From Raja brachyura (Eukaryota), in the NCBI GenBank assembly GCA_963514005.1, contig OY740783.1, positions 43,214,001-43,278,000 of the forward strand: a stretch of DNA of 64,000 nt, in the 5' to 3' direction. A program made the position numbers and the translations under genes. The notes under the pieces are model-generated. The model ran no database searches, had not been told where the DNA came from, and saw nothing but the letters and a program-made list of their open reading frames with translations. Shown one piece after another: positions 3,126 through 59,733 of this stretch. The first letter of the stretch is position 1; the number at the start of each line of letters is the position of its first letter.

Positions 3126-3451
3126 TATTACTTTTAGCAAGAATAAATTGGTGCAATATATTCATAGTGATACTGTTCACATTATTTTCTAGAAACTGTT
3201 TTTCCAGTGAGAAGAGGAGAATAATCTAAAATGGGCACATATTGAAAGAAACATATCAGCAGCTATAAAATTAAAAACAATATAATCTCCAAATATTTTA
3301 GCTAAATTGTTGACGATGTTAGTTATTATTTATCATTAATTGGATTTTCCACCTTAAAATGATCACCTACATAGAAGATGATCAATTTTATAATTATTTA
3401 TCATTTAACAGACTCAAAAGATGACACAATTTATTCTCCCATGGGACTTAC

Positions 3452-3745
3452 TTGGAGCAAGTGGTGTACGGAATGTGACTTCCTTGCTGTAGTCACTGTA
3501 ATTAGAATTCTTACACCCCTTCACTCTGAAGAGGTAGCTGCTGTTGATGTCGAGGTTGGTTATGACTTTACTTGTTCCGCTCACATCCTCGGTAGACTGC
3601 CAGACAGAGTCTCCACCTTGGTCAAGTTTCCTGTACTCGAGTTTATAGTGGTCGGCAGGAGGGGTGCCTTCGGGCTGCTGCCAACAGATGATTCCTTCGT
3701 CATACAGCCAGCTCTGCTTCTGGTCAATAATCGGTGCATCTGGAA
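3452..3745 (-). CDS. TRIM46: TRIM46/TRIM36-family exon: fibronectin type III domain (294 nt, phase 1 to 1)
   Basis: (V)PDAPIIDQKQSWLYDEGIICWQQPEGTPPADHYKLEYRKLDQGGDSVWQSTEDVSGTSKVITNLDINSSYLFRVKGCKNSNYSDYSKEVTFRTPLAP. Boundaries ttccag|TTCCA and A|gtaagt. Confidence 0.95.
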
Positions 3746-4084
3746 CTGGAACATTAGGCATGAGTTATTATTCCATGTATCGTTTACTCCAAGACAATGG
3801 TTGCTTCACCATAATGGTTGCATTATCCTAACTCACCCATATTACTCCGTCAGTACCTCCTAAACCCAAACCTCTGCTATCCAGAATAGCACGGGCGGCA
3901 AGTGCATAAGAAAACCACCCAACCATGTTCCCCTTGGATTTATATAGCTATTCCTTCATTGCTGCTGGATCTAAATTCTAGAACCTCTTCCCCAACACTA
4001 TTACAGAAGTACCCTCCCCTGAAGGACTGCAATGGTTCAAGAAGATAGCTCACCGCCAACTTGTGAAGGCCAATGAGGAATGGA

Positions 4085-4580
4085 CAATAAATGCTGATCT
4101 TGCCAGGACTAGAGGGTCTGAGCTATAGGGAGAGGTTGAGTAGACTGGGTCTCAATTCCTTGGAGCACAGGAGGATATGGGATGATCTTATAAAATGAGG
4201 TGCATAAAATCATGAGAGGAATAGATTGGGTAATGCACAGAATCTCTTGGGTAATGCACAGAATCTCTTGCCCAGAGAAGGGGAATTGAGGACAAGAGGA
4301 CATGGGTTCAAGGTGAAGGGGAAAAGATTTAATAGGAATCTGAGAGGTAACTTTTTCACACAAAGGGTGGTGGGTGTATGGAACAAGCTGCCAGAGGAGG
4401 GAGTTAAGGTTGGGACTATCCCAACGTTTAAGAAACAGTTAGATAGGTACATGGATAGGACAGGTTTGGAGGGATATGGACCAAGTGCAGGCAGGTGGGA
4501 CTTGTGTAGCTGGGACATGTTGGCTGATGTGAGTAAGTTGGGCCGAAGAATCTGTTTCCACACTGTATCAATCTATGACT
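4085..4580 (+). mobile_element. CR1 LINE 3' fragment, (tatgactc)-tailed subfamily
   Basis: RTRGHGFKVKGKRFNRNLRGNFFTQRVVGVWNKLP; contains an internal 21-bp tandem duplication. Confidence 0.9.
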
Positions 4581-5179
4581 CGATCTTGCCAGTGCCACCT
4601 ACATCTCAGAGAATTATTAAATAGAATTGATAGCCTTAAATCAATGGAAGGGAGATTATTGGAGAGATTCTCAGGGATAGGATCTACTCACATCTGGAAG
4701 AAAATGAACCTTTTAGGGATAGTCAGTGTGGCTTTGTGCAGGGGAGGTCATGTCTTACAAACTTGATTGAGTTTACTAAGGAGGTGTTGATGAAGCTTGA
4801 TGTGGGTATGGCCGTAGACATTGCTTTACAGGGACTTTAGTAAAAGTTTTTACAAACTCTCTCATTGATGATCAAGAAGATTAAGGCACATGCGAACCAT
4901 GGAGACAGTACTCTGGATTCTAAATTAGCTTGGCCGTAGAAGACAGGGGTGATAGTGGAGAGGTTATTTTGACTGTAGGATCATGGCCAGTGATATTCTA
5001 CAAGGAGTAAACTGTTGTTTCTGATATATACAAATGATTTGGATGAAAATGTAGATGGAAAGTTTGCAGACAACAAAAAAAAAATTGCAGTGAGGAAGGT
5101 TATCAGCAAAATGTAACCAGTTGGTGATATGGCTGGAGAAACTCCAGATAGAGGTTAATCCAAACATTGTATGGCGTGT

Positions 5180-6798
5180 GGGTACACAAAAGGCTGGAGA
5201 AACTCAGCAGGTGCAGCAGCATCTAAGGAGCGAAGGAGATAGGCAACGTTTCGGGCCGAAACCTTTCTTCAGACTGATGGAGGGTGGGGGGTGGGGGAGG
5301 GGGGCGGAGAGAAGAAAGGAAAAAGGAGGAGGAGGAGGCCGAGGGCTCAGGAAGAGTTGGGAAGCGGAGGAGACAGCAAGGGTTAACAGAATTGAGAAAA
5401 TTCAATGTTCAAGCCAAGAGGATGCAGACACCGCAAGCGGAATATGAGGTGCTGTTCCTCCAATTTGCGGTGTTGCTCACTCTGGCCGTGGAGGAGGCCC
5501 AGGACAGAGAGGTCGGATACGGAATGGGAGGGGGAGTTGAAGTGCTGAGCCACCAGGAGGTCGGGTTGGTTATTGCGGACCGAGCAGAGGTGTTTGGCGA
5601 AACGATCGGCAAGCCTCCGCTTGGTCTTACCGATATAGATCAGCTGGCATCTAGAGCAGCGGATGCAGTAGATGAGGTTGGAGGAGGTTTAGGTGAACCT
5701 CTGTCGGACCTGGAAGGACTGTTTGGGTCCCTGAAAGGAGTGGAGCGGGGATGTAAAGGGACAAGTGTAGCATCTCTTGCGGTTGCAAGGGAAAGTGCCC
5801 GGGGAAGGGGTGGAGCGGAGGGAAGGGAAGAATTGACGAGGGAGTTGCGGAGGGAGCGGTCTTTGCAGAAGGCAGACAGAGGGGGAGATGGGAAGATGTG
5901 GCGAGTGGTGGGGTCACATTGGAGGTGGCGAAACTGGCGGAGGACTATGTGCCGGCTGGTGGGGTGAAAGGTGAGGACCAGGGGGACTCTGCCCTTGTTG
6001 CGAGTGGGGGAATGGGAGAGAGGGCAGTGTTGCGGGGTATGGAGGAGACCCTGGTGTGAGCCTCATCTATAGTGGGGGAGGGGAATTCCCGTTCTCTGAA
6101 GAATGAGGACATTTGTGATGACCTGGTGTGGAACACCTCATCCTGGGAGCAGATGCGTCGTAGATGGAGGAATTGGGAATAGGGGATGGAGTCCTTACAG
6201 GAAGCAGGGTGGGAGGAAGAGTAGTCCAGGTAGCCATGGGAGTCAGTGGATGTCGGTCAGGAGTGAATCCCCTGCAATGGAGATGGTGAGGTCAAGGAAT
6301 GGTAGGGAAGTGTCGGAAATGGTCCAGGTGTATTTGAGTGCCGGATGGAAGTTGGTGGTGAAACGGATGAAGTTAGTCAGTTGAGTGTGGGTGCAGGAGG
6401 TGACACCAATGCAGTCGTCGCTGTAACGGAGGTAGAGGTCGGGGATGGGGCCCTGGTACGCCGAGAACAAGGATTGTTCGACGTACCCGACAAAGAGGCA
6501 GGCGTAGCTGGGGCCCATGCGTGTGCCCATAGCTACGCCTTGTATTTGGAGGAAATGGGAGGAGTTAAAAGAGAAGTTATTGAGGGTAAGGACCAACTCC
6601 GCTAGGCGGAGGAGCATGTCAGTGGACAGGTATGGGTTGCTCCTATGGTCGAGGAAGAACCGGAGGGCTTTGAGACCATCCTGGTGGGGGATGGTGGTGT
6701 AGAGCGAGTGGACGTCCATGGTGAAGATGAGAGGATGGGGGCCTGGAGAATGGAATGCGCGGAGACAACAGAGAGTGTCTGAGGTGTCTTGAATATAG
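5180..6798 (-). mobile_element. Penelope-like element, 5'-truncated: RT remnant plus terminal hammerhead module, 12-bp TSD
   Basis: ORF 6243..6815 has PLE-type RT motifs MDVHSLYTTIPH, GVAMGTRMGPSYACLFVG, YLRYSDDC and LPFLDL. Perfect TSD tgtatggcgtgt at 5168-5179 and 6799-6810. Confidence 0.92.
5243..5275 (-). ncRNA. Minimal type I hammerhead-ribozyme motif in the Penelope terminus
   Basis: Minus strand agt-CTGAAGA-aaggtttcggccc-GAAAC-GTT-gc; stem II has a mismatch and stem I is very short. Confidence 0.55.
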
Positions 6799-7624
6799 TG
6801 TATGGCGTGTTGCACCTTCGGAGTTCAAATGTAAGACAAAAGTATACAGTAAATGGCAGAACCCTGAGGAGCACTGATTTACACAAAGATTTTGGAGTAC
6901 AAGTCCATAGCTCTCTGAACCTAGCAACACAAGTGAACAGGGTGGTAAAGAAGGCATAAAGCATCCTCACCTTCATCGGGCAGGGTGTTCAAGATAAAAG
7001 AAGGGACGTTTATGAGGTTGCATTTGGAGCATTGTGTACAGTTCTGGTCATTACATTACAGGAAGGAGAAAGAGGTTTTGGAGAGGGTGCAGAAGAGGTT
7101 TACCAGGAATTTGCCTGGATTAGTGGGTATGAGCTATAAGCAGAGCATGGACAAACCTGGATTGCTTTCTCTGGGGCATCAGATATTGAGAGGAGACCTG
7201 ATCGTATATAAAATTATGAGAGACATAGATAGGTTGGATACTCAGTTTTTCACCAGAGCTGAAAGGTCAAATACTGGAGGTCATAGCTTTATGATGAGTG
7301 GGGGAAAGTTGAAAGAAGGTGAATGAGACAGTTTTTTTCTTACATTGAGAGTGGTAGATACCTGGAACACGCCGCCAGATGCAGTGGTGGAAGCAACTAC
7401 AATAACAATGTTTAAGATACATTAAGACATGAAGTGGCAGAGAATTAATTATCAGTTTGCAGTTTAAGTTGGCGTCATAGTCAGCACAAACATTGTGAAC
7501 CAAGGGGACTATTCCTGTGTGGTACTGTGTTTTGTTCTATCTAAAATATACATATATGAATATACAATGTTCCTAATAATTAACAATACAAGAGAGCCAC
7601 AGGGGAACTGCAGAATGATTTACC

Positions 7625-7710: not shown

Positions 7711-10700
7711 ACATGTTTGGGAATACAAATCAATAATGCAATTCTCTTTTCTTAACTATGGCTTCTAATTAGATTTTCTGTTAGACAAGAATGTAAGAAG
7801 TAATCCTATGAATTGACTGAAGATAATTAAAACTTCTTGAAACACTCTGTTTGAACCTGCATAACATCCAGTATTGTTGATTTCATTAATATTAAATTGG
7901 AAAAGCAATTTGTAAAATGGCAAGATTTAAAATCTGAATTACATGAACAAAATAAAGCAAATTCAATTAAAGAGACCTGTAGCTTGCAAAATGCACATCA
8001 GTATTCATCAGACAGCACAAACGTAACTAGTTTTAGAAGATAAATTAGTGCTCAAGGTTAACAAATGGGACACAAAGAGCTTCCTTCAGTCTGTGCCAAC
8101 ATTTCAGTGGGCGCATTTATTAAGTGGTGCAGTAATAATCTATTCTGACACAGAAGGTCTGAGCTTTGATTCTTGATTTTTAATGTGTTTCCTCAGGGAT
8201 TTTAATGGGTCGGGAGAAAAAGAAACATCACACATCTAGAAAGTATTTGATTTTTTTTAAAGTATCTACTGAATGAGAATCGCACCAGACCCAGCCATTT
8301 ACCAGACATGTGTGCTGTTGATAATGTTGCTACCCTGATCCTCAATAAATCTGCGTCATCCTACATTCCCACGAGTGAATACCGCACTGGACAAAGCTAA
8401 GATTAAGTTAAGGATCACCAGAGGTAAACATTAACCTAAACAGGGCGATTGTAGAAAGGCCTGTGAGTTAATGCAGGGTGTGGATCCACTGTAGGGGCTA
8501 CTATTCTGATAATGATAACTTGTAATGTAACTACCCTAAAAAATCTTGTGATCAGGCATAAATATATGGGGCAAGAGGCACCTACACTGCACAGACTGAA
8601 GAATCAGACTTAAAACGGTGTTTAAAATGATGGCCATCTCATTGGGCCCACTAAAAAAGTAACTTTGCTTGATTATTAAACTTGAAGAAAGATTCAAGGT
8701 CATTCAATGCCAGGAGCTGGTCTTCCCTGGAAGGTTGCTATCAGCACCTGGGCTTATCTCCCAAACCACTGCCAGGGAGTCCAGCAGTGCCCTTCTCATA
8801 ATCTCCATTATCCTTCAGTATTTATCCAACACCAGCCCACCTCTCTCCTTGCCATATATTAACTTGCCTCTACCTCAACAATCATCTCTTCTCCCCCTTC
8901 CTATCATATCCTCTCCAATCTCTCAATCTTCCCCTGAGGCCTTCAATCTCCCCAATTCCCTGAAGCCTGCTTTCTTCTGTCCGATCAAGTCATTCTTTCA
9001 CCTACCAAACCTACCACACACCTCACATGATCATCTCCAACACCTTCCCCCTGCCCAATCACCCTTGCTCTTTTCTCCCCTACCCCTCCACCCCGGCCCC
9101 TCTCCAATCTTCCTTACTATTCCCAAGTGATTGAATCCAAAAACAGCCTTCAATCTTCCCCACACCATTCTTCTTTCTCCATCACTCTGGGTGGTGACAA
9201 CAACAAAGTCAACCACACACTTTGTGTGCAAGGTTGTAATTGACAGTTCTAACATGTTCAAATCTTTGGGCATCATGCTGTTTATGTTTTGGAACCTTGT
9301 GGACTTTTTCAAATCTAGAATGGAACAAACATTTGCCCATCCATCGTTTCACAAGAGGTGAAGCATTCTAAACCACCACTGTATTGGAAGAACCAAGAAT
9401 GGTCTATCCCATCACCTCTGCTACATTAGCTCAGGGGGGCATCTGGAGGGAGGTCCCAGCAAAAGTCTAATAGTCTCCACTGTAACAATAAGTACAAAGC
9501 ATATACTGAACTAAAGCAGCTCCAACCAACAGCCAAAGATAGTGTTTATTTAGCTTATTATTACTGTCACATGTACTGAGGTACAGTGAATAAACTGCTT
9601 CAATGAAAGTAAATATAAAGGATGCCGGAGGGTTCAATAAAACATAGAAACATAGAAAATAGGTGCAGGAGTAGGCTATTTGGCCCTTCGAGCCAGCACC
9701 ATCATTCAATATGATCATGGCTGATCATCCAAAATCAATATCCCATTCCTGCTTTCTCCCCAAAAACAGCAAATAATCAAAATACTCAGCAGGTCAGGGA
9801 CATATGGAGGGAGAAACAGGACTAACATTTTTAGGTCCATGGCTTTCTGCTTTAGAACTAAATATTAGCCAGACTGCAATGTTTCATAAACTAAACCATA
9901 TCATCTTCCAACTATGCACAAGGGTACTTTGGCAACAAATCTAGTCGCTGTCATGAGAGGCTTTTGGACTTTGAAATTTCATTTTACGACAGGAAGGATG
10001 TTGCTACAATTTGAATATCATATAAAATGCGAGGAGCTCAGAAACTACCAGTGGACTTTAAGTGCATCTAAGTACAGAACATTAATATTTTAATTTTTTG
10101 TACAATCAATGCATTATTTAAAAGCCACTCAGTTCCTGAATTCCAGCTCCAAAGGCACAAAGTGCAGCTTAATAACATCCTGCCTCAGCAGCAGCCATTT
10201 CCATGGAGACTGAATCTGGCCTAAATGCCTCATTTATCATCACTCTTAATGCAGTTATTGATCTATTAGAAGTAAGTGAAGCTGACCATTAAGCTACCTA
10301 CAGACTGTTGGAGTCTTTGCCAGTATCAATGAAACTAACATTATATTATTTATTCCACTGCTATCAAACACAGATGTATTATTGTTTAACTAAGAATGGA
10401 TTTAACCCAGGGCATCAAGGAGATTGGCAGCTTTCACAGGTATAATGGACTAAATTTACTAACCCAGCATGCAACGAGGAAGCACAGAACTTCACGGGGA
10501 AAATTGTAGAGCCAACTGCAAGCTGAATCATCTGTGAAATGATTCATTAATACAGAGACAACACCATCACAAGACAGTTTGTTTTTCTGCTTGCTTCATG
10601 CATCATCTGTGTTATGGTTACCCACAGATTTTTCAAGTCAACAATAAATGTTCACTAGGGGTAGGTTGTTGAAAAGTTCAGAAATCTTCTCTGTCAAGTT

Positions 10701-12122: not shown

Positions 12123-13328
12123 TCATAATTTTGGCCAAATTGGAGATGCCAGGACACTAACATTGAGTAAAGGCTTCTGGGCTGCTAGGCCATTTGGTCA
12201 ATTTAAATGTGCCTTCTGCAGAAATGGGACAAGCTGTAGAATGGTGCCAGCTTGTCTAGAGCCTAGATAAGAGTTGCAGAAAGAGAATGGAACATCTGCA
12301 GATTCTGACAATTAGGTGTAAATTGCATGGAACGGATTGGGTGAATGCAAACCAAACATACACATTGTAAATATTGTTACAGTTTTACTTTGCTAGATGT
12401 TGATTGGGTTAAGTGTTGAGCCAACCAAGAATAGTGGAGAGACAGTTGACGGCACGGAAAGACGGCACCTGGGAAAGGCTGGGTTAGCACCCCAGTCTGT
12501 GTCTTTCGTGAGAATGACACCCAACAAAGCTATGGAAAGGCCTAATGAACCATCGTGGCCTAAACATCCACCAGGCGAGAATGAAATGCTCGGAGAAGGA
12601 GAAAGAGGTGCAACGCACAGGCCTTGAACCTTGTGAGACACAGGAGGAGCCCGGCTGGGAGTCACCCCACAGAGCCCAGTCCCTCCATGCACTAGAGTCT
12701 CCCAACCCCTGCAGAGTAGTTATTAAGATGGCTGATCCGTGGGCGGTTGCTGCTGGGACGCAAGTCGGGGCCTGATCAACCCTGGCTGGGTCGCCTGGGC
12801 GAGGGTGTCTGATGTTGTGAGACCCGAAACATCCGATGACCCCAGGTCACATCACTGAGGATGCGTCCCAGCGCATCTAGAAGATGTATATTTTTCACAT
12901 TCACATCTAGAAACTTCGTCGGATACATTATATTAGTCACTGTATTATTGGGTTAGGGAAATGTCTATCATGTACTGTGTTAATCGATATCTGTTATTGG
13001 ACTGTATAGAGACCACGCCCATGAGGTTCGGCCCCTCAAAGTTCGGGGACCTATATAAGGCCGCTCCCACGAGGTCCTGTGTTGATCTTCTGGGAGAAAG
13101 CTTAGGACTGTGTCACCTTCTGGAGTGCCTCTGCTTGCACGAGGCTAGGATGGCTTGGCCAGGCAGATACAAGGATCGAAGACCTTCTACTTCCCACTAC
13201 TGGTTAGGTATATTAGTGGGAACTGTTATTTTGCTTTTCCAAAATAAAGTTTAGATGTGCAAATGCTTGACTCAGTATGTCATTGACTGAAACTAGGCTG
13301 GGGGGGAGCTTAGAACGAGCTATTTACA
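12123..13328 (+). mobile_element. Probable solo LTR, interrupted by the element at 12424-12906
   Basis: Splits a CR1 3' fragment (ctcttAGGG ... AGGGctaatggaatc) with a 4-bp duplication. TATATAA at 13052, AATAAA at 13243, ends in CA. The 5' end is uncertain: 12123 by TSD, or 12366 where tgtaaata mirrors the terminal tatttaca. Confidence 0.6.
12424..12906 (+). mobile_element. Short non-autonomous non-LTR element, copy 1 (Hero-like internal-deletion derivative)
   Basis: Highly similar to and co-terminal with 36880-37357. Mini-ORF 12545..12775 joins RGLNIHQARMKC...ETQEEPGWESPHRAQSL to IKMADPWAVAAGTQVGA*. Confidence 0.65.
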
Positions 13329-18489: not shown

Positions 18490-21400
18490 AGGTAATTTAC
18501 CTCTTTTATTCTCGCTGGAGTTTACATTCTCCCCCCCAAGCCTGCGTACGTGAGGCACGAACGCAACTCGCTGACCAGGTAATGAGAGTTGAGAGTGACT
18601 TCCCGGACTCCATGGTCATTGTTTAGTTCACCTTATTCCGACCTACAGGCAGAAACTAAAATCTGCTAAGCCTGTGGTCAGAACAAAAGTGGACAAGCGA
18701 GGGCATTGGAAACCTACAGTCCTGCTTTGACTGCACTGATTGGAACGTGCTCAGGGAAGCAACCACAAGCTTTGATGAATATATAGACACTGTGATAGCA
18801 TTTGTCAGCTTTTGTGAGGACAGTTGCATTCCCACTAGGACCCGGATCTGGTTCAACAACGACAAACCTTGGTTTACAGCAGAACTTAGACAGCTCTGCC
18901 AGTCTGAAGATGAAGCCTACAGGAGCGGGGATGCAGACCTCTAAAGATAGCGGAGTCAGGGAATATGGTGAGAAGGCAGGAACAGGGTACTGATTGTGGA
19001 TGATCAACCATGATCACATTAAATGGCTGTGCTGGCTCGAAGGGCGGAATGGCGGAATGGCCTACACCTGCACTTATTATCTATTGTCTATTGCCAAGTA
19101 CAAGCTCAGAAGAGGAATCAGAGCTGCCAAGGAGGAGCAAGTTGAGGAGCAAGTTCTCAGCTAATGAGTCATCTTCAGTATGAAAGGGCTTGCAAGAAAT
19201 CACCAACTACAAATGGGAAACCTCCCCATTCCTTGGATGATCATCAGCTGAACAACGACCTGAACGAGTTCTACTCCTCCCCAATGATTACTTCAAACCT
19301 ACTCACAGCCTGACTCCAGTCTGCAAAGACTGGACCCTTCCCCACCCACTCCTCCCCAATCACCACTTCACACCCACTTACAGCCTGACTCCAGTCTGCA
19401 AAGACTGGGCCATCGTCCACTACCCACCCCTTCCTTGCTGCCCAACATCAGTATGGCCACTTTTCCATCACTAAAAATAGAAATTGAGGAGGTGGAGAAT
19501 CTATTCAGGAGACAGAAAAGCCGGAAATCTCCAGGACCGGACAATGTCTCCCCTACCTTCAAGCTCTGTGCCGAACAACTGGCACCAGTCTACACGGACA
19601 TTGTCAACCAGTACAGCAAACCTGTACTGAGACTTTGCCTGCTTCAAAGTCTCCACTTTTGTTCCTGTACTCAAAAAGCCACGGATTACTGGTCTTAATG
19701 ATTACAGCCTGTCGCACTGACCTCTGTAATCATGAATACAATAGACAATAGGTACAGGAGTAGGCCATTTGGCCCCTCGAGCCATTCAATGTGATCATGG
19801 CTGATCATCCCCAATCAGTGCCCCGTTCCTGCCTTCTACCCATATCCCCTGACTCCGCTATTTTTAAGAGCCCTATCTAGCTCTCTCTTGAAAGCATCCA
19901 GAGAACCTGCCTCCACCACCCTCTGAGGCAAAGAATTCCACAGACTCCCATTCTCTGTGAGAAAAATTGTTTCCTCGTCACCATTCTAAATGGCTTACTC
20001 CTTATTCTTAAACTATGGCCCCTGGTTCTGGACTCTCCCAACATCAGGAACATGTTTCCTGCCTCTAGCGTGTCCAAGCCCTTAACAATCTTATATGTTT
20101 CCATGAGATGCCCTCTCATCCTTCTAAACTCCAGAGTGTACAAGCCAAGCTGCTCCATTCTCTCAACACATGACAGTCCCGCCATCCCGGGAATTAACTT
20201 TGTAATCCTACGCTGCACTCCCTCAATAGCAAGAATGTCCTTCATCAAATTAGGGGACCAAAACTGCACACAATACTCCAGGTGTGGTCTCACTAGGGCT
20301 CTGTACAACTGCAGAAGGACCTCTTTGCTCCTATATTCAATTCCTCTTGTTATAAACGCCAACATGCCATTCGCTTTCTTCACTGCCTGCTGTACCTGCA
20401 TGCTTACTTTCATAGACTGATGTACAAGGACCCCCCACATCCCGTTGTATTTCCCCTTTTCCCAACTTGACGCCATTTAGATAGTAATCTGCCTTCCTGT
20501 TTTTGCTACCAAAGTGGATAACCTCACATTTATCCGCATTAAACTTCATCTGCCATGCATCTGCCCACTCCCCCAACCTGTCCAAGTCACCCTGCATTCA
20601 CATAGCATCCTCATCACAGTTCACACTGCCACCCAGCTTTGTGTCTGCAAATTTGCTAATGTTACTTTGAATCCCTTCATCCAAATCATTGATTGAAGAC
20701 CCTTGAAAGATTTGTGCTGACCCACCTGAAAAATATCACAATCCCCCTGCTGGACTCCCTGCAGGTTACATATCGGACCAATAGATCAGTCTATTGCCGC
20801 AGTCAACCTAGGCCTGCACCATCCTCCAGCACCTAAACCGCCAGGGGACCTGTGCAAAGATTTTGTTTGTGGATTTTAGCTCTGCATTCAACACCATTGT
20901 GCCAGAGCTACCACACTCCAAACTCTCCCAGTTGACTGTGCCTGAACCCCTCTGTCAGTGGATCATCAACTTCCTGACAGACAGGAAGCAGCATGTGAGG
21001 CTGGGAAAGCACATCTCGACCTGCTGACCCTCAGCATCGGTGCACCGCAAGGCTGCGTACTCCCCCCTCTCCTTAACTCTCTCTGCACCAACGATTGCAC
21101 CTCCACAGACTCCTCTGTCAAGCTTCTCAAGTTTGCGGACGACACAACCCTGATTGGACTGATCCAGGATGGGGAGGAATCTGCCTACAGACAGGAAGTG
21201 ACACAGTTGGTGTCCTGGTGCCATTGCAACAACCTTGATCTGAATTCTCTTAAGACAGTGGAATTGATTGTAGACTTTTGGAGAGCTCCCCCTCCCCTCC
21301 CCCCCCCCCCCCCCCCCCCTCACCATCCACAACACCATAGTTACATCTGTGATCATTTAAGTTCCTTGGAATCATCATCTCCAGGGACCTTAAATGGGAG

Positions 21401-21995
21401 GCCATCATCGACTCCACAGTCAAAAAGGCCCAACAGAGGATGTACTTCCTGCGGCAGCTGGGAAAACACAATCTGCCTCAGGCAATGATGGTCCACTTTT
21501 ATACTACCATCGTAGAGTCTGTCCTCACCTTCTCCATCATGGTCTGGTTTGGCTCAGCCACCAAGCACGACATCCAGAGGCTGCAGCGCATCGTTCGATC
21601 ATCCGAGATGGTTGTTGGCTGCAACCTTCCCCCCATCGATGAACTGTACACTGCAAGGGCCAGGAAGCGAGCGGGTAAGATCATCTCTGACCCCTCTCAT
21701 CCTGGCCACAAACTCTTTGAAGCATTTCCCTCTGGAAGGCGACTCCGGACTGTCAAAGCCGCCACAGCCAGACATAAAAACAGCTTTTTTCCACAAGCAG
21801 TAGCTCTACTCAACAACTCAAAGTCTGTAGCCTCCTTTTGCTCTGGTATTTTATTTCATTCTTCACATGTTTCAATTATAATATTTTATTCTTAATTGTT
21901 TACTGTATATTGTGTTGTTACCTGCGAGCAAAGTAACAAGGCTAATTCCTTGTATGTACAGTATACATACTTGGCTAATAACATTTATTCAGTTC
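18490..21995 (+). mobile_element. Rex1/Babar-like LINE, degraded, with two CR1 insertions (about 18943-19093 and 19737-20694)
   Basis: NNDKPWFTAELRQL, KSPGPDNVS..KLCAEQLAPVYTDI, SIGAPQGCVL.PLL..L.TNDC, KLLKFADDTTLIGLIQDGEESAYRQEV, MYFLRQL...FYTTIVESVLTFSIMVWFGS, SGRRLR..KNSFFPQAV. Confidence 0.88.
19737..20694 (-). mobile_element. CR1 LINE 3' ~1 kb nested in the Rex1-like LINE
   Basis: ORFs 20337..20597 and 19877..20476 (WQMKFNADKCEVIHFG; LVRPHLEYCVQFWSP); tgaa present on both flanks. Confidence 0.93.
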
Positions 21996-29840: not shown

Positions 29841-30094
29841 CTGGTGTGCAGTTGCTTTGCTGTCTGAACGAAGCAAGATTGGTCTGTCTCCTTCAGAACC
29901 TCTTGTGCATAACCCACCAATCCACTATTTTCCAGCATTCCCTGGCATTCATCCATTTGGCATTGCAATCTCTCCAACTTTGAGGTACGGCTGTCCTCAA
30001 TCGACTTGATAAGCTTCAGCTTGCGCTGTTCCAAGATGCTGCACAGCTTGTCAATTAAATTAGTGGCATCCGTTCTTGACTTCTCTCCATTTCT
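29841..30094 (-). CDS. TRIM46: TRIM46/TRIM36-family exon: coiled coil 2 and start of COS box (254 nt, phase 0 to 2)
   Basis: RNGEKSRTDATNLIDKLCSILEQRKLKLIKSIEDSRTSKLERLQCQMDECQGMLENSGLVGYAQEVLKETDQSCFVQTAKQLHT(R), within ORF 29837..30190. Boundaries ttgcag|AGA and AG|gtaggt. Confidence 0.96.
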
Positions 30095-30167
30095 CTGCAA
30101 AAAAGTTAAATACAAAAGGGTTGTGTCTTCATGTAATGTTTCACTTAATTTGTTACATCCCATGAAT

Positions 30168-32953: not shown

Positions 32954-33761
32954 TAATGATGCCATCATTAAAAATTAGTAGTCTCCTTCAAGCCTGGATG
33001 TGATGGATAGTGTTGACATTGTTGAGCTATGAGTGGGATTGGTGGAGGCGAGTGGCTTGTGATGGTCACATGTCTTTGCTCTCTGGATACTTTCAAGAGA
33101 GAGCTAGATAGGGGTCTTAAAGATAGCGGAGTCAGGTGATATGCGGAGAAGGCAGTAATGGGGTACTGATTGGGGATGATCAGCCATGATCACATTGAAT
33201 GGTGTTGCTGGTCAAAGGGCCAAATGGCCTACTCCTGCATCTATTGTCTATTGTCTATTGTTAAATGACAAATCAACCAGGTGTTTTATTGAGAGCAACA
33301 TTGAAACATAATTACTACAGATACAGCCAAGCCTGCTTTTGCAGAACTTCAAAGAGTGTCCATTTTATCTACCCATAATTCAAGAGGTGAGGTGCTAATG
33401 TGCACACCGCAAGGTTCCACCAACTACTGTGTGATGAGAGTGGAGTCTTTCAGTGAAATTGTGGGAAGGATAAATATTGGCCAGGGCAACAGGGAAGAGG
33501 TGAGTGAGAAATTGGTTACATGCAAGGCAGCTGCTGTTGCCAGATCAGAGGACAGAGCTCTATGAAAGACCCTTAAGAATTATCAGCCCTCGTGGTACCC
33601 GTTCCAAGTCAAATTGAATAAGAGTACAGAAAACAGAGAAAAATAAATTAAATGACTGATTGGTCTCCAATCAGAACAAAACACAAAATGCATTAATTGG
33701 ATTTTCACTCTTCAATTTCCACCAAATCGCTGAAGAACTCAACAAAGTACTGGAATGACAG

Positions 33762-34765
33762 CCAGTGACTAGTGGGGTACCACAAGGCTCGGTGCTGGGA
33801 CCGCAGCTATTTACAATATATATCAATGATTTAGATGAAGGGATTCAAAGTAACATTAGCAAATTTGCAGCTGACACAAAGCTGGGTGGCAGTGTGAACT
33901 GTGAGGAGGATGCTATGAGAATGCAGGGTGACTTGGACAGGCTGGGTGATGCATGGCAGATGCAGTTTAATGTGAATAAATGTGAGGTTATCAATTTTGG
34001 TAGCAAAAACAGGAAGGCAGATTATTATCTAAATGGTGCCAAGTTGGGAAAAGGGGAAGTACAACAGGATCTGGGAGGTCCTTATTCATCAGTCAATGAA
34101 AGTAAGCATGCATTTACAGTAGGCAGTGAAGAAAGCGAATGGCATGTTGGCCTTCATAACAAGAGGAGTTCAGTAAAGGAGCAAAGAGGTCCTTCTGCAG
34201 TTGTACAGGGCCCTAGTGAGACCACACCTGCAGTATTGGTCCCCTAATTTGAGGAAGGACATTCTTGCTATTGAGGGAGTGCAGTGTAGGTTTACAACGT
34301 TAATTCCCGGGATGGCTGGACTGTCATATGCTGAGAGAATGGAGAGGCTGGGCTTGTATACTCTGGAATTTTGAAGGATGAAAGGGGATCTTATTGAAAC
34401 ATATAAGATTATTAAGGGTTTTGACACGCTAGAGGCAGGAAACATGTTCCCGATGTTGGGGGCGTCCAGAACCAGGGGCCACAGTTTAAGAATAAGGGGT
34501 AAACCATTTAGAATGGAGATGAGGAAACACTTTTTCAGACAGAGAGTTGTATCTGTGTAATTCTCTGCCTCAGAGGGCAGTGGAGGCCGGATCTCTGGAT
34601 ACTTTCAAGAGAGTGCTTGTTAGGGCTCTTAAAGATAGCAGAGTCTGGAGATATGGGGAGAAGGCAGGAACGGGATACTGATTGGGGATGATCAGCCATG
34701 ATCACATTGAATAGCAGTCCTGGTATGAATGGCCGAATGGCCTACTCCCCAACCTATTTTCTCTT
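33762..34765 (+). mobile_element. CR1 LINE 3' ~1 kb with RT remnant
   Basis: SGVPQGSVLGPQLFTIYINDLD...ISKFAADTKLGG; stops and frameshifts present. Confidence 0.93.
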
Positions 34766-35423
34766 GTCCATAAAACTCTAATAATCTTCTGTCCCATTTT
34801 TTTGAATTGCCAGAGGTTCAGAACCTGTCTTGCCAGCTGGTGCTTCCTGTTAAACTCACCAGGGCCTACTTCCTGCATTCCTATGAAATTCAGTTTTTGC
34901 ATTCCCTTTAAATTTACACAAATGGGTCAGTGGAAAATGTTTTACACCACGGTGTAATCTTAAAACAAAAGTCAATTGGTAGTGTATTATGATATAACTG
35001 CAATAGGAATAACATACAATAATCTAGAAAATCTACTGAGTACCAAAGTCCTGAGAGTGCTGGAAATTTACTGTAGATGAATGATACACCTTGTGGCAAT
35101 CAAAGGTGGAACTCACTGTGTCTACCAGCTCTGAATCAAAGAGCCATGTGTTTAAGCCCATGGGATTCCAGTACAAAATTAGTAGCAAAACCAGAGCTTG
35201 CTGCTAATGGCAAACTGCCCACACTTGCCACTAGCCTAAAATGAAAGAACAAGCTTAACCTTTATAAATGCACAGTTATGACATTGTGCGCTCAGAGTAC
35301 CTTGGTCTTCAATGGTGAGGCTGCACAGAGTTCCTCTTAAGACAGTTGCTCTTGGGTAAGAACGAGTTACAGCCTCAGGCTAAAGAAATTCCTCCTCATC
35401 TCCTTTCTAAAGGTATATCCTTT

Positions 35424-36630: not shown

Positions 36631-36879
36631 CCTTTTATCTTGTTTATGTGCCTTACGTGCGGAATCGTATCAAAGGCCTTATCTGCCTGATTAGTTTACA
36701 ACTCCATGGCATGAACATTGAATTCTCCAATTTACTGCAACCCAAGACCATCTTTCTTTTTTTCGGTCCTCGTATCCACCTCCCCCTCCCCCTCTCCCCA
36801 TGCACAACTGCTCACTCCTCCTCTGTTGTTTCCATCTGCCACTTTCCCTTCTAATATACAGTAGTTCCACTGTTCACAC

Positions 36880-37357
36880 ACCAAGAATAGTTTGGTGACT
36901 ACTGGAGAGACAGTTGACGGCACGGAAAGATGGCACCCGGGAAAGGCTAGGTTAGCACCCCAGTCTGTGTCTTTCGTGATAAAGACACACAACAAAGTTA
37001 CGGAAAGGCCTAATGAACCATCGTGGCCTAAACATCCATCAGGCGAGAATGAAATGCTCGGAGAAGGAGAAAGAGGTGCAGCGCACAGGCCTTGAACCTG
37101 GTGAGATGCAGGAGGAGGCCGGCCGGGAGTCACCCCACAGAGCCCAGTGCTAGAGTCTCCCAACCCCTGCAGAGCAGTTATTAAGATGGCTGATCCGTGG
37201 GCGGTTGCTGCTGGGACGCAAGTCGGGGCCTGATCAACCCCGGCTGGGTCGCCTGGGCGAGGGTGTCCGATGTTGTGAGACCCGAAACACCCGATGACCC
37301 CAGGTCACATCACTGAGGATGCATCCCAGCTCATCTAGAAGATGTATATTTTTCACA
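36880..37357 (+). mobile_element. Short non-autonomous non-LTR element, copy 2 (Hero-like derivative)
   Basis: Starts ACCAAGAATAGT and ends gatgtatatttttcaca, the same ends as copy 1 at 12424-12906. Confidence 0.65.
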
Positions 37358-37459
37358 CTTTGCTATCAGATTCCTGAATCTGCAGCCTTCGCCTTCCCGC
37401 CTATAATCTGACATCTGAATTTCCCCTGAAAAGGGGATTAATATAGTAACTTATTAAAG

Positions 37460-37534
<75 letters not shown>
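37460..37534 (+). repeat. (TATC)n tetranucleotide microsatellite
   Basis: Perfect run of about 18-19 units. Confidence 0.97.
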
Positions 37535-37535
<1 letters not shown>

Positions 37536-51339: not shown

Positions 51340-51940
51340 CATGGAAACATCGAAAATAGGTGCAGGAGTAGGCCATCCGGCCCTTCGAGCCAGCACCGCC
51401 ATTCAATGTGATCATGGCTGATCATCCACAATCAGCCCCGTTCCTGCCTTCTCCCCATATCCCTTGGTTCCTCTAGCCGTAAGAGTATCTAACGCTCCTT
51501 TGAATGCATCCAATGAATTGGCCTCCACTGCCTTCTGAGGCAGAGAATTTCACAAATTCACAACTCTCTGGGTTAAAAAGTTTTCATCTCAGTTCTAAAT
51601 GGCTTACCCCTTATTCTTAAACTGTGGCCCCTGGTTCTGGACTCCCCCAACATTGGGAGCATGTTTCCTGCATCTAGCTTGTCCAATCCCTTAAGAATTT
51701 TATATGTTTCTATAAGATCCCCTCTCATCCTTCTAAATTCCAGTGAATACAAGCCCAGTCGTTCCATTTTTTCATCATATGACAGTCCCGCTATCCCGGG
51801 AATTAACCTTGTGAACCTACGCTGCATTCCCTCAATAGCAAGAATGTCCTTCCTCAAATTAGGAGACCAAAACTGCACACAATATTCCAGGTGTGGTCTC
51901 ACCAGGGCTCTGTACAACTGCAGAAGGGCCTCTTTGCTCC
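51340..51940 (-). mobile_element. CR1 LINE 3' fragment
   Basis: ORF 51573..51962 LLQLYRALVRPHLEYCVQFWSPNLRKD. Confidence 0.92.
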
Positions 51941-52619
51941 TCACATACTTCTCACATACCAAGGATATATTCCTGATCTTTCAATCAACCTCATTGTGGC
52001 ACTTGCCCTTTTTTCACCTGCACTTTCTTATAACTGTAACACTATATTCTACAAACACAAGCAACTGCAGATGCTGGGTTACTGAAAAAGACACAAAATG
52101 CTGGAGTAACTCATCAGGTTCGGCAGCATCTCTGGAGAACATGGATAGATTATGTTTCAGATAGGGACCATCCTTCAGAGTGATTGTAAAAGGGGTGGGA
52201 GAAAAAGTTTGGAGGGGATGTCAGAAGGTGATTCATATCCAACATGATACTTAGGCTCTGATCTGCCCATTAGGTACACAGTAGCTGTGAGCTTGGTCCA
52301 GTTGAGTTTCCAGACAATGTTGAGCAGGCACCCAATCAATGGTGGGGGATTTGACATTGGTAATGCCATTGGATGCCAAGAATAAGTAATTTGACACTCT
52401 CTTGCTGGAAATGTTAATTGGCTGGCAGTTTGGTGGTGTGAGTGTTAGTTGTAATATGTCAGTCCATGCTTAATTGTTGTTTAAGTCTAGTTGAATGCAG
52501 GCATGGAATTTTTAATTTGTTCTGGTTTAGGTTTAGATTTATTAATATCACATGTACTCAGGTACCGTGAAAAGCTTTATTTTGCATGCTATCCAAATTG
52601 CTCAGATATGCCACCTGAA

Positions 52620-52756
52620 CACAAGTCGTGGTCTGATCAACCACGGCTAGGTCGCCTGGGTGAGGATGTCTGACATTGAAAGACCCGAAACACCCAATGA
52701 CCCCAGGTTACATCACTGATGATGTGTTCAGGAGCATCTATAGATGTATTTTTTTA
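52620..52756 (+). mobile_element. 3' end only of the Hero-like element (third, more diverged copy)
   Basis: caagtcgtggtctgatcaacc...gggtgaggatgtctga...gacccgaaacacc...catcactgatgatgtg...gatgtattttt aligns with 12760-12895. Confidence 0.7.
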
Positions 52757-56676: not shown

Positions 56677-57730
56677 ACCTGATATTCAACTTGTATTCTA
56701 AGGAAAAGGAAAACATGAAAAATGTTTCCAAATAAAAGTAGCAAGTATTTTCAACACGAGGATCTTTTTTAGTTTGTCACTTCATCCATTCCATGAGATA
56801 TGCACACAATCTTAAGAGAATGCGCAGCTGTTAAGTATGAGCATGGATAAAATGACTGCATCATCTGTCGCATTTATATCAGCACATATGATAATCATGC
56901 CATAAGTTGTATTTTATTTCTAAGACAGAATGTGGCTTTGTCTGATCGAATGTTATGTCCTTTTAAGGAATGGAAAGGCTGAAGGCTATATATTGATAAT
57001 CACTCAACCTAGTCTTGTGATATGTACAATTAATGATTGGACTATTCAAATGGGCCTGTTAAAGTTAGGAAGTTGATGTAACTAACAACATAAAAGCCAC
57101 ATATATATTTGAAGTCAATTTCCTCTGAATATTCAAGTTACTTCCATTTACTGATTCACATTGGTATCCTCAAGGGAAATGCTGACCTTTTGGTTGTTCC
57201 ATTCATATGTGGCAGAGTGAATAAGCAAGATTAATTAATTCAACCATGCAACCAACTCAAATGGGGGTTTCAATTTCATCTTAATTATGAAAACACAATT
57301 CTGCTAATTTAATCAATACAAATATATTTTGAATAATGTGACTATATCTTAAGTATTCCAATACATATAATGGGTAGAATGCATCTTCACTCAAATGTTA
57401 CCTGATGTATAAGTTAGACAAGCAGATACTGTGCACTAGTAATTCAATCTCATTCTTTGGCTTAGCTGACTGAGCTATTGAGCTCCAAACAAATTAATTA
57501 TTAATTGAGTGCTAATGTATTTTATAATGATTTTTGCATGTATATGTTAGAAGTGATGAGACCGTATATTTACACCTTCACAGGAAATCTCTGGGAAGAA
57601 AGAGAAAGTATTCTGAAAACTATATATTTTTAATCATATTGCTTCCCATTTAAAAGAAGTCTGATGATACAAATGGAAATGCCTATCTGGAATATATTTC
57701 ATAAAAGAGGCAGTAAAACGAGCTCCGTAC

Positions 57731-58074
57731 CTTGGGTCTGAAGTTGGTGGTTGGTCCGCCATACTCATGTTGAGCCTTTGGAGTCCCCCAGGGATGGTGA
57801 ATTTTGTAGCATTCATTACAATAGCTGGCTTTGCAGTCCATACAACTCTTTGTAGCCTCGCTGGGCGGTGACTTGCAGAGGTTGCACATGATGGCCACCG
57901 CAGCTCGGGCGGCCTGTCTGTATCTCTCTACAATCGCTTCCAAAGTGAAGTTTCGGAACAGACCACTGATGCCTCGTTCTCCGAGATCTATGTCACGTTT
58001 ACAGCTAGGACAAGGGAAGGTGGTGACTCCTTGACTGTGGATAGTCCGTTTCCAGCCTGGATGGGCAGCAGATC
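57731..58074 (-). CDS. TRIM46: TRIM46/TRIM36-family exon: end of RING region plus B-box1 (344 nt, phase 1 to 0)
   Basis: Reads (G)[114 protein letters not shown]. Acceptor aaaaag|GATCTG, donor AAG|gtacgg. An in-frame alternative acceptor would start the exon at 58056. Family assignment is secure; TRIM46 versus TRIM36 is less certain. Confidence 0.93.
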
Positions 58075-58340
58075 CTTTTTAGTCAACCAATACATGAAAG
58101 AATTGAGGGAAAGACAGAGAGAGGACAGACAAGGGAAAGTAGAAAAAGAAAATTGAAAGAGCAGTAAAGTTATATACTTTATTGGAATGGTAGAGTAGTA
58201 CAATAGAGAAGAAACATTTAGAAGTTCAATTGAAGAGCAATCTCAGTTGAATCATTCTCCAATTCATTTACTTAACCCTGCAATCCATTCTCTTCCAATT
58301 ATTTATCCAATTTATTTTTGTAGATCGCTCTTGATCTGTA

Positions 58341-59733
58341 CAGACCAGTTAGTCTAACATCGGTAGTGGGGAAACTGTCAGTTATTAAAGATGGGATAGC
58401 AGCACATTTGGAAAGTGGTGAAATCATTGGACAAAGTCAGCATGGATTTACGAAAGGTAAATCATGTCTGACGAATCTTGTGGAATTTTTCGAGGATGTA
58501 ACTAGTAGCGTGGATAGGGGAGAACCAGTGGATGTGGTGTATCTGGACTTCCAGAAGGCTTTCGACAAGGTCCCACATAAGAAATTAGTATATAAACTTA
58601 AAGCATATGGCATTGGGGGTTCAGTATTGATGTGGATAGAGAACTGGCTGGCAAACAGGAAGCAAAGAGTAGGAGTTAACGGGTCGTTTTCACAATGGCA
58701 GGCAGTGACTAGTGGGGTACCACAAGGCTCAGTGATGGGACCCCAGCTATTTACAATATACATAAATGATCTGGATGAGGGAATTGAAGGCAATATCTCC
58801 AAGTTTGCGGATGACACTAAGCTGGGGGGCAGTGTTAGCTGTGAGGAGGATGCTAGGAGACTGCAAGGTGACTTGGATAGGCTGGGTGAGTGGGCAAATG
58901 TTTGGCAGATGCAGTATAATGTGGATAAATGTGAGGTTATCCACTTTGGTGGCAAAAATAGGAAAACAGACTATTATCTAAATGGAGGCCGATTAGGAAA
59001 AGGGGAGATGCAGCACGACCTGGGTGTCATGGTGCATTGAAAGTAGGCATGCAGGTACAGCAGGCAGTGAAGAAAGCGAATGGTATGTTAGCTTTCATAG
59101 CAAAAGGATTTGAGTATAGGAGCAGGGAGGTTCTACTTCAGTTGTATAGGGTCTTGGTGAGGTCACACCTGGAGTATTGCGTACAATTCTGGTCTCCAAA
59201 TCTGAGGAAGGACATTATTGCCATAGAGGGAGTGCAGAGAAGGTTCACCAGACTGATTCCTGGGATGTCAGGACTGTCTTATGAACAAAGACTGCATAGA
59301 CTCGGTTTATACTCTCTAGAATTTAGGAGATTGAGAGGGGATCTTATAGAAACTTACAAAATTCTTAAGGGGTTGGACAGGCTAGATGCAGGAAGATTGT
59401 TCCCGATGTTGGGGAGGTCCAGGACAAGGGGTCACAGCTTAAGGATAAGGGGGAAATCCTTTAGGACCGAGATGAGAAAGAATTTTTCCACACAGAGAGT
59501 AGTGGGTCTCTGGAACTCTCTGCCACAGAGGGTAGTTGAGGCCAGTTCATTGGCTATATTTAAGAGGGAGTTAGATGTGGCCCTTGTGGCTAAGGGGATC
59601 AGAGGGTATGGAGAGAAGGCAGGTACGGGATACTGAGTTGGATGATCAGCCATGATCATATTGAATGGCGGTGCAGGCTCGAAGGGCCGAATGGCCTACT
59701 CCTGCACCTAATTTCTATGTTTCTATGTTTCTA
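58341..59733 (+). mobile_element. CR1 LINE, 5'-truncated 1.4 kb with nearly intact RT domain
   Basis: ORF 58366..59040 (SQHGFTKGKSCLTNL, YLDFQKAFDKVPH, SGVPQGS, KFADDTKL) and ORF 59037..59636 are separated by one frameshift; (tttctatg)n tail. Confidence 0.96.

What the first reader, a model, noticed from the sequence alone, without database searches (positions are those of the whole stretch)
12424..12906. Candidate SINE-like family derived from a Hero-type retrotransposon by internal deletion
Seen: two ~480 bp copies (12424-12906 and 36880-37357) share the same 5' start (ACCAAGAATAGT) and 3' end, and a 3'-only relative lies at 52620-52756. There is no tRNA head, TIR or RT. The mini-ORF reads NHRGLNIHQARMKC...ETQEEPGWESPHRAQSL followed by IKMADPWAVAAGTQVGA*. 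From memory these resemble the extreme N- and C-termini of Hero-clade (restriction-like endonuclease) non-LTR ORFs of fishes, and the 3' UTR resembles theirs. Inference: a bipartite element (5' end fused to 3' end) amplified in trans, analogous to R2-derived SIDEs, and possibly unnamed.
Basis: partly seen in the sequence, partly recalled or inferred. Interest (0 to 1): 0.7.

Follow-up and report, generated by a model that had tools for sequence, protein, structure and literature searches.

The report
Miniature Hero retrotransposon derivative (SIDE)
Two 480-base copies in different introns of one vertebrate gene are a Hero retrotransposon with its middle removed at two shared points, likely re-copied by an intact Hero's enzyme, which would add Hero to the few retrotransposon groups reported to spawn such miniature parasites.

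Summary
Observation confirmed, with one correction. Copies A (12424-12899) and B (36880-37357) are 95% identical, have unrelated flanks and are separated by a host exon. Their pieces match the start and last 16 residues of ~1080-aa fish RT/endonuclease proteins, which are 63-64% identical to the Tetraodon protein matching published HEROTn. The element has three pieces, not two. A ~3-kb deletion removes RT and endonuclease. A second deletion of ~125-135 nt removes half of the N-terminal zinc finger. Both copies share both junctions and both ends. It is not a SINE: there is no RNA-derived head. [quoted passage not shown] Copy C (52609-52755) is a 5'-truncated 3' end, 82-83% identical, lacking the junctions and probably from another Hero subfamily. 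SIDEs are reported for RTE, Ingi, Vingi, R2 and CR1; ten literature searches found none for Hero. Repbase/Dfam, genome copy number and the partner element could not be checked. Verdict: a real, modestly interesting new member of a known kind.

The parts
12424..12899 (+). Copy A, whole element (476 nt)
12424..12549 (+). Copy A piece 1: 5' region of a Hero element, upstream of the zinc finger; A lacks 12 nt that B and relatives have
   Evidence: Translations match upstream extensions of Hero proteins: P0010 aa 11-42, E 9e-12; best of 60 shuffles (of copy B's 5' region) E 0.015. P0110 aa 78-104, E 1e-8
12547..12549 (+). Junction 1: about 125-135 nt of the parent missing, including the CxxC half of the N-terminal zinc finger; GAA is a likely microhomology (inferred from protein only)
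   Evidence: 12 of 14 relatives carrying both anchor motifs have 39-44 residues here that the window lacks; same junction in B
12548..12721 (+). Copy A piece 2: 58 codons of the Hero ORF N-terminus
   Evidence: 42 of 58 identical to P0002 aa 17-74; 81% to P0001
12721..12722 (+). Junction 2: about 990 codons (~2.97 kb; RT, CCHC finger, endonuclease) missing
   Evidence: P0002 aa 74 joined to aa 1065; same junction in B, 37179/37180
12722..12899 (+). Copy A piece 3: last 17 codons, stop (12773-12775) and ~124-nt 3' UTR with a predicted terminal stem-loop
   Evidence: 14 of 17 identical to the P0002 C-terminus. A second frame matches read-through C-termini of 18 listed Hero-type proteins, 16 of them at the last residue, including Takifugu Q76IN2. 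Fold not better than shuffles, z -1.16
12545..12775 (+). 76-aa fused mini-ORF, open only in A; probably an accident of the two deletions
   Evidence: frameshifted in B; no fused homologue found
36880..37357 (+). Copy B, whole element (478 nt): piece 1 36880-37015, piece 2 37016-37179 (10-nt private gap), piece 3 37180-37357
36873..36879 (+). TTCACAC, repeated at 37352-37358: candidate 7-bp target-site duplication of B (ambiguous)
   Evidence: chance 0.15% for random positions, but 6 of the 7 bases also end copy A
52609..52755 (+). Copy C: 5'-truncated Hero 3' end (last codons plus 3' UTR), probably another subfamily, inserted in an older host repeat
   Evidence: 82-83% to A and B; boundaries; flanks match other window repeats

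Best explanation
This is a Hero-clade non-LTR retrotransposon cut from about 3.6 kb to 0.48 kb by two internal deletions, and the two copies are likely separate insertions of one deleted master, reverse-transcribed in trans by an intact Hero protein (a SIDE). Shown: the three pieces, their order, the loss of RT and endonuclease, the shared junctions and ends, and unrelated flanks. Inferred steps: (1) the deletions arose once, probably by template jumps during reverse transcription, junction 1 at a GAA microhomology; (2) the master was transcribed by RNA polymerase II from the retained 5' region or from upstream sequence; (3) an autonomous Hero protein bound the retained 3' UTR and inserted full-length copies by target-primed reverse transcription at non-specific sites; (4) the copies then decayed neutrally. 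No host function is indicated.
For: Both ends of the same full-length proteins are hit: P0002 aa 17-74 and 1065-1080, and likewise P0003 and P0004. Of 120 long relatives, 54 match the N-terminal piece, 42 match the C-terminal piece at their very end, and 25 match both. Clade: P0002-P0004 are 63-64% identical to Tetraodon Q7T1J8 over ~1100 aa (75% in the RT core, 289 of 387), and that RT differs from the printed HEROTn RT at about 6 of 388 positions by eye. One origin: both junctions and both termini are identical in A and B. Separate insertions: no similarity in 500-nt flanks (best E 0.1); in 2-kb flanks only an unrelated common repeat 1.9 kb away. A host exon with AG/GT splice sites lies between them (~29842-30097, minus strand). 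B has a 7-bp direct repeat at its ends. Neutral decay: 16 of 22 substitutions are transitions, about 9 at CpG-type sites, and B is frameshifted.
Against: Only two junction-bearing copies are in hand, 24 kb apart, same strand, same gene, so a local DNA-level copy is not excluded. A has no target duplication. B's is ambiguous: TTCACA also ends A, and B's 5' flank resembles the 5' end of a distant Hero (alignment), although that alignment is not significant alone (2 of 200 shuffles as good). No poly(A) tail. No fused short protein from further copies was found: 1 candidate, and none of the 78 hits carries the C-terminal motif. The 3' UTR folds no better than shuffles (z -0.55 to -1.16), and is not significantly better conserved between A and B than the rest (5 of 178 against 17 of 288 differences, p 0.18). 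No autonomous partner from this genome was found.
Confidence: 0.8

Rival explanations
1. One Hero insertion decayed by deletion in place and was then copied once, at the DNA level, into a nearby intron (templated break repair or a gene-conversion patch). There is no family and no trans-mobilisation.
For: Only two copies, 24 kb apart, same orientation, same gene; no target duplication at A; no further fused copies in the protein sets.
Against: Similarity starts and stops at the element's own ends with no flank carried along. The start lies within a few codons of where similarity among unrelated Hero relatives begins, and the end just past where it stops. B has a 7-bp terminal repeat.
Confidence: 0.12
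2. The junctions are splice junctions: an autonomous Hero transcript is cryptically spliced and reinserted, so each copy comes straight from the parent and no deleted master exists.
For: At junction 1 the parent's preceding residue is Lys in most relatives, so an AAG codon could supply an acceptor AG (inferred from protein). Splicing would also give identical junctions.
Against: At junction 2 the preceding parent residue is Trp (TGG), which gives no AG acceptor. Junction 1 is as well explained by a GAA microhomology. A and B share an Arg-to-Met change next to junction 2, which suggests a common master if the parent had Arg.
Confidence: 0.05
3. It is a true SINE transcribed by RNA polymerase III, with a Hero tail.
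For: Size and lack of RT; one loose A-box-like match in B.
Against: No tRNA; no Rfam match at gathering score and only a 12-nt chance hit at E 2.6 in B; no B box in either copy and no A box in A. The whole length is accounted for by Hero sequence.
Confidence: 0.02
4. The two copies are independent deletions of separate full-length insertions, or an assembly artefact.
For: Recurrent deletion at microhomologies is reported for the CR1 SIDE Persaeus (PMC6740152).
Against: Two junctions and both ends would all have to recur to the base. The copies differ at 22 sites plus two gaps and have different flanks, so they are not one sequence assembled twice.
Confidence: 0.01

Closest known systems
R2 SIDE of Drosophila willistoni (R2Dwi_SIDE, 529 bp; PMC3414825, abstract and section 5 read)
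   Same: About 0.5 kb; 5' end joined to 3' end of a restriction-like-endonuclease retrotransposon of about 3.5 kb; RT and endonuclease gone; presumed copying by the parent protein.
   Different: R2 SIDE inserts in 28S rDNA, has a tested HDV-like ribozyme, a poly(A) tail and an unrelated 197-bp middle. This element sits in introns, shows no recognisable ribozyme or poly(A), and its middle is Hero coding sequence between two junctions.
Bipartite non-autonomous LINEs of RTE, Ingi (RIME, NARTc) and Vingi, and the CR1 SIDE Persaeus (PMC5786205, PMC6740152; passages)
   Same: Dispersed, made only of parent LINE ends, no polymerase III head.
   Different: Different parent clade (Hero). Three pieces rather than two; 58 N-terminal and 17 C-terminal codons are kept. 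Family size here is unknown.
HEROTn of Tetraodon (UniProt Q7T1J8; the name Zebulon for it is recalled) and Takifugu Q76IN2 (its identity as HEROFr is recalled)
   Same: The window pieces align to the N-terminus (28 of 58) and C-terminus (7 of 17) of Q7T1J8; a second frame over the stop and 3' UTR matches the Q76IN2 C-terminus. Not site-specific, as stated for HEROTn, HEROFr and HERODr (PMC3636483).
   Different: Those are autonomous. The nearer sub-lineage is that of P0002/P0003/P0004/P0092/P0098 (cichlid, cavefish, killifish, pipefish, medaka; FastTree support 0.845 on only 75 placed residues).

Membership tests
SIDE / bipartite non-autonomous LINE | Carries the 5' region of an autonomous LINE | tested here: met
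   Piece 1 matches upstream extensions of Hero proteins, E 9e-12 against best shuffle 0.015. The parent's true 5' end may lie up to a few tens of bases further upstream.
SIDE / bipartite non-autonomous LINE | Carries the 3' end of the same LINE | tested here: met
   Last 16 residues, stop and 3' UTR match the same proteins.
SIDE / bipartite non-autonomous LINE | RT and endonuclease removed by internal deletion | tested here: met
   P0002 aa 75-1064 absent; Pfam RVT_1 lies at aa 336-585.
SIDE / bipartite non-autonomous LINE | Multiple dispersed copies share the junction | tested here: met
   2 of 3 related stretches in the window share both junctions, with unrelated flanks. Minimal evidence: n = 2, one locus.
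SIDE / bipartite non-autonomous LINE | Hallmarks of target-primed reverse transcription (target duplication, variable tail) | tested here: inconclusive
   7-bp repeat at B only, overlapping a motif shared with A; A has a doubled TTCACA and no duplication.
SIDE / bipartite non-autonomous LINE | Autonomous partner in the same genome, active at the same time | not testable with these tools
   No genome available; no Hero RT in the window. Copy C shows only that a related Hero inserted here.
R2 SIDE (strict) | Insertion in the 28S rDNA target | tested here: not met
   No rRNA in the window; the copies lie in introns.
R2 SIDE (strict) | 5' HDV-like ribozyme | tested here: inconclusive
   No Rfam hit; own descriptor found 0 hits but had no positive control; 5' fold z +0.1 to +0.4.
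Hero clade (parent) | Single ORF: RT followed by CCHC finger and PD-(D/E)xK restriction-like endonuclease | tested here: met
   Tested on the nearest full-length relative P0002: RVT_1, CCHC at aa 858, PD...E motif seen by eye (the script pattern missed it); best solved-structure matches are R2 proteins. The element itself lacks these domains.
Hero clade (parent) | RT groups with reference HERO elements | tested here: met
   P0002 RT core 289 of 387 identical to Q7T1J8, which matches the HEROTn RT printed in the supplement of PMC7650587. Judged by identity; no tree with other clades was built.
SINE | Head derived from tRNA, 5S or 7SL RNA with a polymerase III promoter | tested here: not met
Named Repbase/Dfam family | Match to an existing consensus | not testable with these tools
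   No repeat library on hand.

The most novel reading that the evidence does not exclude
This is a genome-wide, high-copy SIDE family from the Hero clade, the first from a non-site-specific restriction-like-endonuclease retrotransposon and apparently without an HDV-like ribozyme. Its 480 nt would mark out the minimal RNA that a Hero protein needs for insertion. If the host is a skate or ray, as its repeats suggest from recall, the closeness to bony-fish Hero would also point to a horizontally acquired parent.
Probability: 0.35. Interest if true: 0.6.

Novelty: new member of a known kind. Interest (0 to 1): 0.4.

Why it matters
Kojima 2018 (PMC5786205) states that only RTE, Ingi, Vingi and R2 were reported to produce ORF-less bipartite derivatives, notes that three of these clades carry 5' self-cleaving ribozymes, and leaves open whether this is sampling bias or a transcriptional requirement. 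Wang 2019 (PMC6740152) adds CR1 and calls SIDEs rare. A Hero SIDE would extend that list and test the ribozyme link. It is also a natural deletion experiment on a little-studied clade: the RNA kept would bound the cis signals of a non-site-specific R2 relative, in a group now mined for gene-insertion tools (PMC13580325). It changes no principle, since such derivatives are expected from the R2 model.

Tried and rejected
Segmental duplication: rejected; flanks unrelated and a single host exon lies between the copies. MITE: rejected; no terminal inverted repeats. An 11-nt inverted pair near A (12390-12400 / 12903-12913) lies outside the element and is absent at B. Functional mini-protein: rejected; frameshifted in B, half the zinc finger gone, no Pfam match, no fused homologue, no usable ESM Atlas hit (a blank that shows neither absence nor novelty). 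Ribozymes: no Rfam, hammerhead-core or HDV-descriptor hit; weak negative. Parent DNA in the GTDB collection: a 3' UTR motif scan found 0. A protein scan found 3 loci among 27 stretches: two short internal RT fragments and one distant decayed Hero (L003). L003 supports piece 2 (0 of 200 shuffles as good) and piece 3 (0 of 200) at DNA level; piece 1 is not significant (7 of 200). The cluster look-up could not be made, so the species behind the unnamed close hits (P0010-P0012) stay unknown. An IQ-TREE run timed out; FastTree on 28 of the 120 long relatives was used. Literature: searches returned 0 papers; searches listed none that, by title, abstract start or the passages read, describes a Hero-derived non-autonomous element. 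HERO strings were not found in the supplements of PMC4640811. The Zebulon paper is not held. Metagenome and viral contig collections, Repbase, Dfam and any eukaryote genome were not searched.

Full report
Observation. Self-comparison of the window shows copy A (12424-12899) and copy B (36880-37357) and a shorter relative C. A sensitive nhmmer scan finds no fourth copy. A and B agree at 444 of 466 aligned bases, with 22 substitutions (16 transitions; about 9 CpG-type by a rough script count, two of them beside gaps), a 12-nt gap in A and a 10-nt gap in B. They start at the same base and end at the same base. The 500-nt flanks share nothing (best E 0.1); the 2-kb flanks share only a common host repeat 1.9 kb away. 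The window holds exons of a TRIM gene on the minus strand: a B-box near 57.7-58.1 kb, a coiled-coil-like exon at ~29842-30097 with AG/GT ends, and an fn3 exon near 3.4-3.8 kb. The best solved-structure match is Midline-1; the name TRIM36 is recalled. A and B therefore lie in different introns, antisense to the gene.

What the pieces are. The 85-residue frame of A found 8 proteins among 48 candidates. Six are named, all from ray-finned fishes, and five carry an RT domain. The full-length ones end in the same residues as the mini-ORF. Against P0002 (1080 aa, cichlid), 12548-12721 matches aa 17-74 (42 of 58) and 12722-12772 matches aa 1065-1080 (14 of 17). About 990 codons are missing, including RT (aa 336-585), the CCHC finger (aa 858) and the endonuclease motif (seen by eye). 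Of 120 long relatives, 54 match the N-terminal piece, 42 match the C-terminal piece at their very end, and 25 match both. A second frame over the stop and 3' UTR matches C-terminal read-through in 18 listed proteins.

Clade. P0002-P0004 are 63-64% identical over ~1100 aa to Tetraodon Q7T1J8 (P0120) and 75% in the RT core. That RT differs from the HEROTn RT printed in the supplement of PMC7650587 at about 6 of 388 positions, compared by eye. The closest solved structures are R2 proteins. The parent is therefore a Hero element. A FastTree of 28 selected relatives places the 75 residues beside P0002, P0003, P0004, P0092 and P0098 (support 0.845), a weak placement on little sequence.

The first 124-136 nt match the region upstream of the Hero zinc finger: P0010 aa 11-42, E 9e-12, against a best E of 0.015 in 60 shuffles; also P0110 and P0125. 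Relatives then carry 39-44 residues (12 of 14 with both anchor motifs; the other two 24 and 56) before the point where the window resumes. About 125-135 nt are thus missing, with the CxxC half of the zinc finger. The join creates the ATG of the 76-aa mini-ORF. GAA at 12547-12549 can be read from either side, a likely microhomology inferred from protein. Both junctions are identical in A and B. Adding the pieces gives a parent of about 3.6 kb, of which 13% is kept. A distant decayed Hero found in a genome-collection contig (L003) shows similarity in the same order at DNA level: pieces 2 and 3 beat all 200 shuffles, piece 1 does not (7 of 200), and its 3' UTR match lies 2.3 kb beyond its ORF end.

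Copy C matches only the last codons and 3' UTR (82-83%), starts near 52609, and its flanks resemble other host repeats. It is further from A and B than they are from each other and holds neither junction. I read it as an ordinary 5'-truncated copy of a different Hero subfamily.

How it likely works. Shown: anatomy, shared junctions, separate sites. Inferred from the R2 model (PMC3414825, abstract and section 5): a deleted master is transcribed, an intact Hero protein recognises the kept 3' end, nicks a non-specific target and reverse-transcribes the RNA there. Direct hallmarks are thin. B is bounded by TTCACAC on both sides (0.15% by chance), but TTCACA also ends A, where it is doubled and where no upstream copy exists. 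The 3' UTR can form a terminal stem-loop but folds no better than shuffles. No ribozyme was detected, by tests of limited power. Two unnamed relatives (P0110, P0138) read from 3' UTR sequence straight into the 5' region. That fits head-to-tail Hero arrays, as I recall was reported for Zebulon (paper not held), or circularised contigs. A and B have no such upstream 3' UTR, so how the master was transcribed stays open. Confidence: Hero origin by deletion about 0.97; trans-mobilised family about 0.8; large genome-wide family about 0.55.

Against this reading: two copies only, in one gene; no further fused copies in the protein sets (1 candidate; none of the 78 hits carries the C-terminal motif); no partner found. 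By hand count about 89 of the 120 listed relatives are named, all ray-finned fishes but two lancelets (only the best 120 of 336 were listed, ranked by a cichlid query).

Comparison. It works like an R2 SIDE or an RTE/Ingi/Vingi bipartite LINE and meets the general SIDE tests that could be run. It is not an R2 SIDE (no rDNA target) and not a SINE (no RNA head). Kojima 2018 lists four clades with ORF-less bipartite derivatives and never mentions Hero (passages); Wang 2019 adds CR1, also with no Hero mention (passages). Ten searches showed no Hero-derived case. They cover only openly licensed PubMed Central papers and bioRxiv main texts; preprint supplements, Repbase Reports and Dfam were out of reach and may hold this family, for example as an automatic LINE/R2-Hero consensus. 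Other papers were seen as passages only: PMC4640811 (supplements searched), PMC7650587 (supplement passages), PMC9004415, PMC13580325, PMC2684134, PMC4455052, PMC7245038, PMC11481361, PMC10294476, PMC3636483. The original Hero description (Kojima and Fujiwara 2004) was not seen.

Verdict. New member of a known kind (SIDE) from a parent clade for which I found no report. Interest 0.4; 0.6 if it proves a large family absent from repeat libraries.

Noticed in passing
window 57683-58078, ~29842-30097, 3414-3764 (minus strand): Exons of a TRIM gene of the Midline-1 type: B-box, a coiled-coil-like exon and fn3. Looks like TRIM36 from recall. All three Hero-derived inserts are intronic and antisense to it.
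   Followed up: partly
whole window; window 12548-12721: The repeat content (abundant CR1-type LINE pieces and a ~75-180-nt repeat with many copies) looks like a skate or ray genome from recall; untested. If so, 81% protein identity of decayed copy A to a cyprinid Hero N-terminus would suggest horizontal transfer between bony and cartilaginous fishes.
   Followed up: partly
L003 (CAXXGD010000016.1, labelled Rhodospirillales MAG), 3746-7290 and 9604-9672: A 539-kb contig in a bacterial MAG holds a decayed full-length Hero in 35% GC DNA with long (TA)n runs: probably animal DNA mis-binned as bacterial.
   Followed up: partly
L001, L002 (NZ_QPMK01000093.1, NZ_QYYA01000148.1): Short contigs in two marine bacterial assemblies encode Hero RT fragments 86-90% identical to a fish protein: probably fish DNA contamination.
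   Followed up: no
proteins P0110 and P0138, N-terminal 75 residues: These ORFs read through Hero 3' UTR sequence directly into the Hero 5' region, which suggests head-to-tail arrays or circularised contigs. It bears on where the Hero promoter lies.
   Followed up: partly
window ~12942-13317: About 375 nt just right of copy A begin TGT and hold a TATA box (13052) and AATAAA (13243), like a solo LTR; single copy in the window.
   Followed up: no
window 58324-59636, 19738-20693, 33754-34771, 51340-51941; 20946-21895; 6243-6824: Decayed reverse-transcriptase fragments of other retroelements. Pfam RVT_1 was found in the three scanned (58324-59037, 20946-21485, 6246-6824); CR1-type, L2/Rex-type and Penelope-type labels are recalled.
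   Followed up: no
window 37459-37535: A (TATC)n microsatellite about 100 nt downstream of copy B; not part of the element.
   Followed up: no
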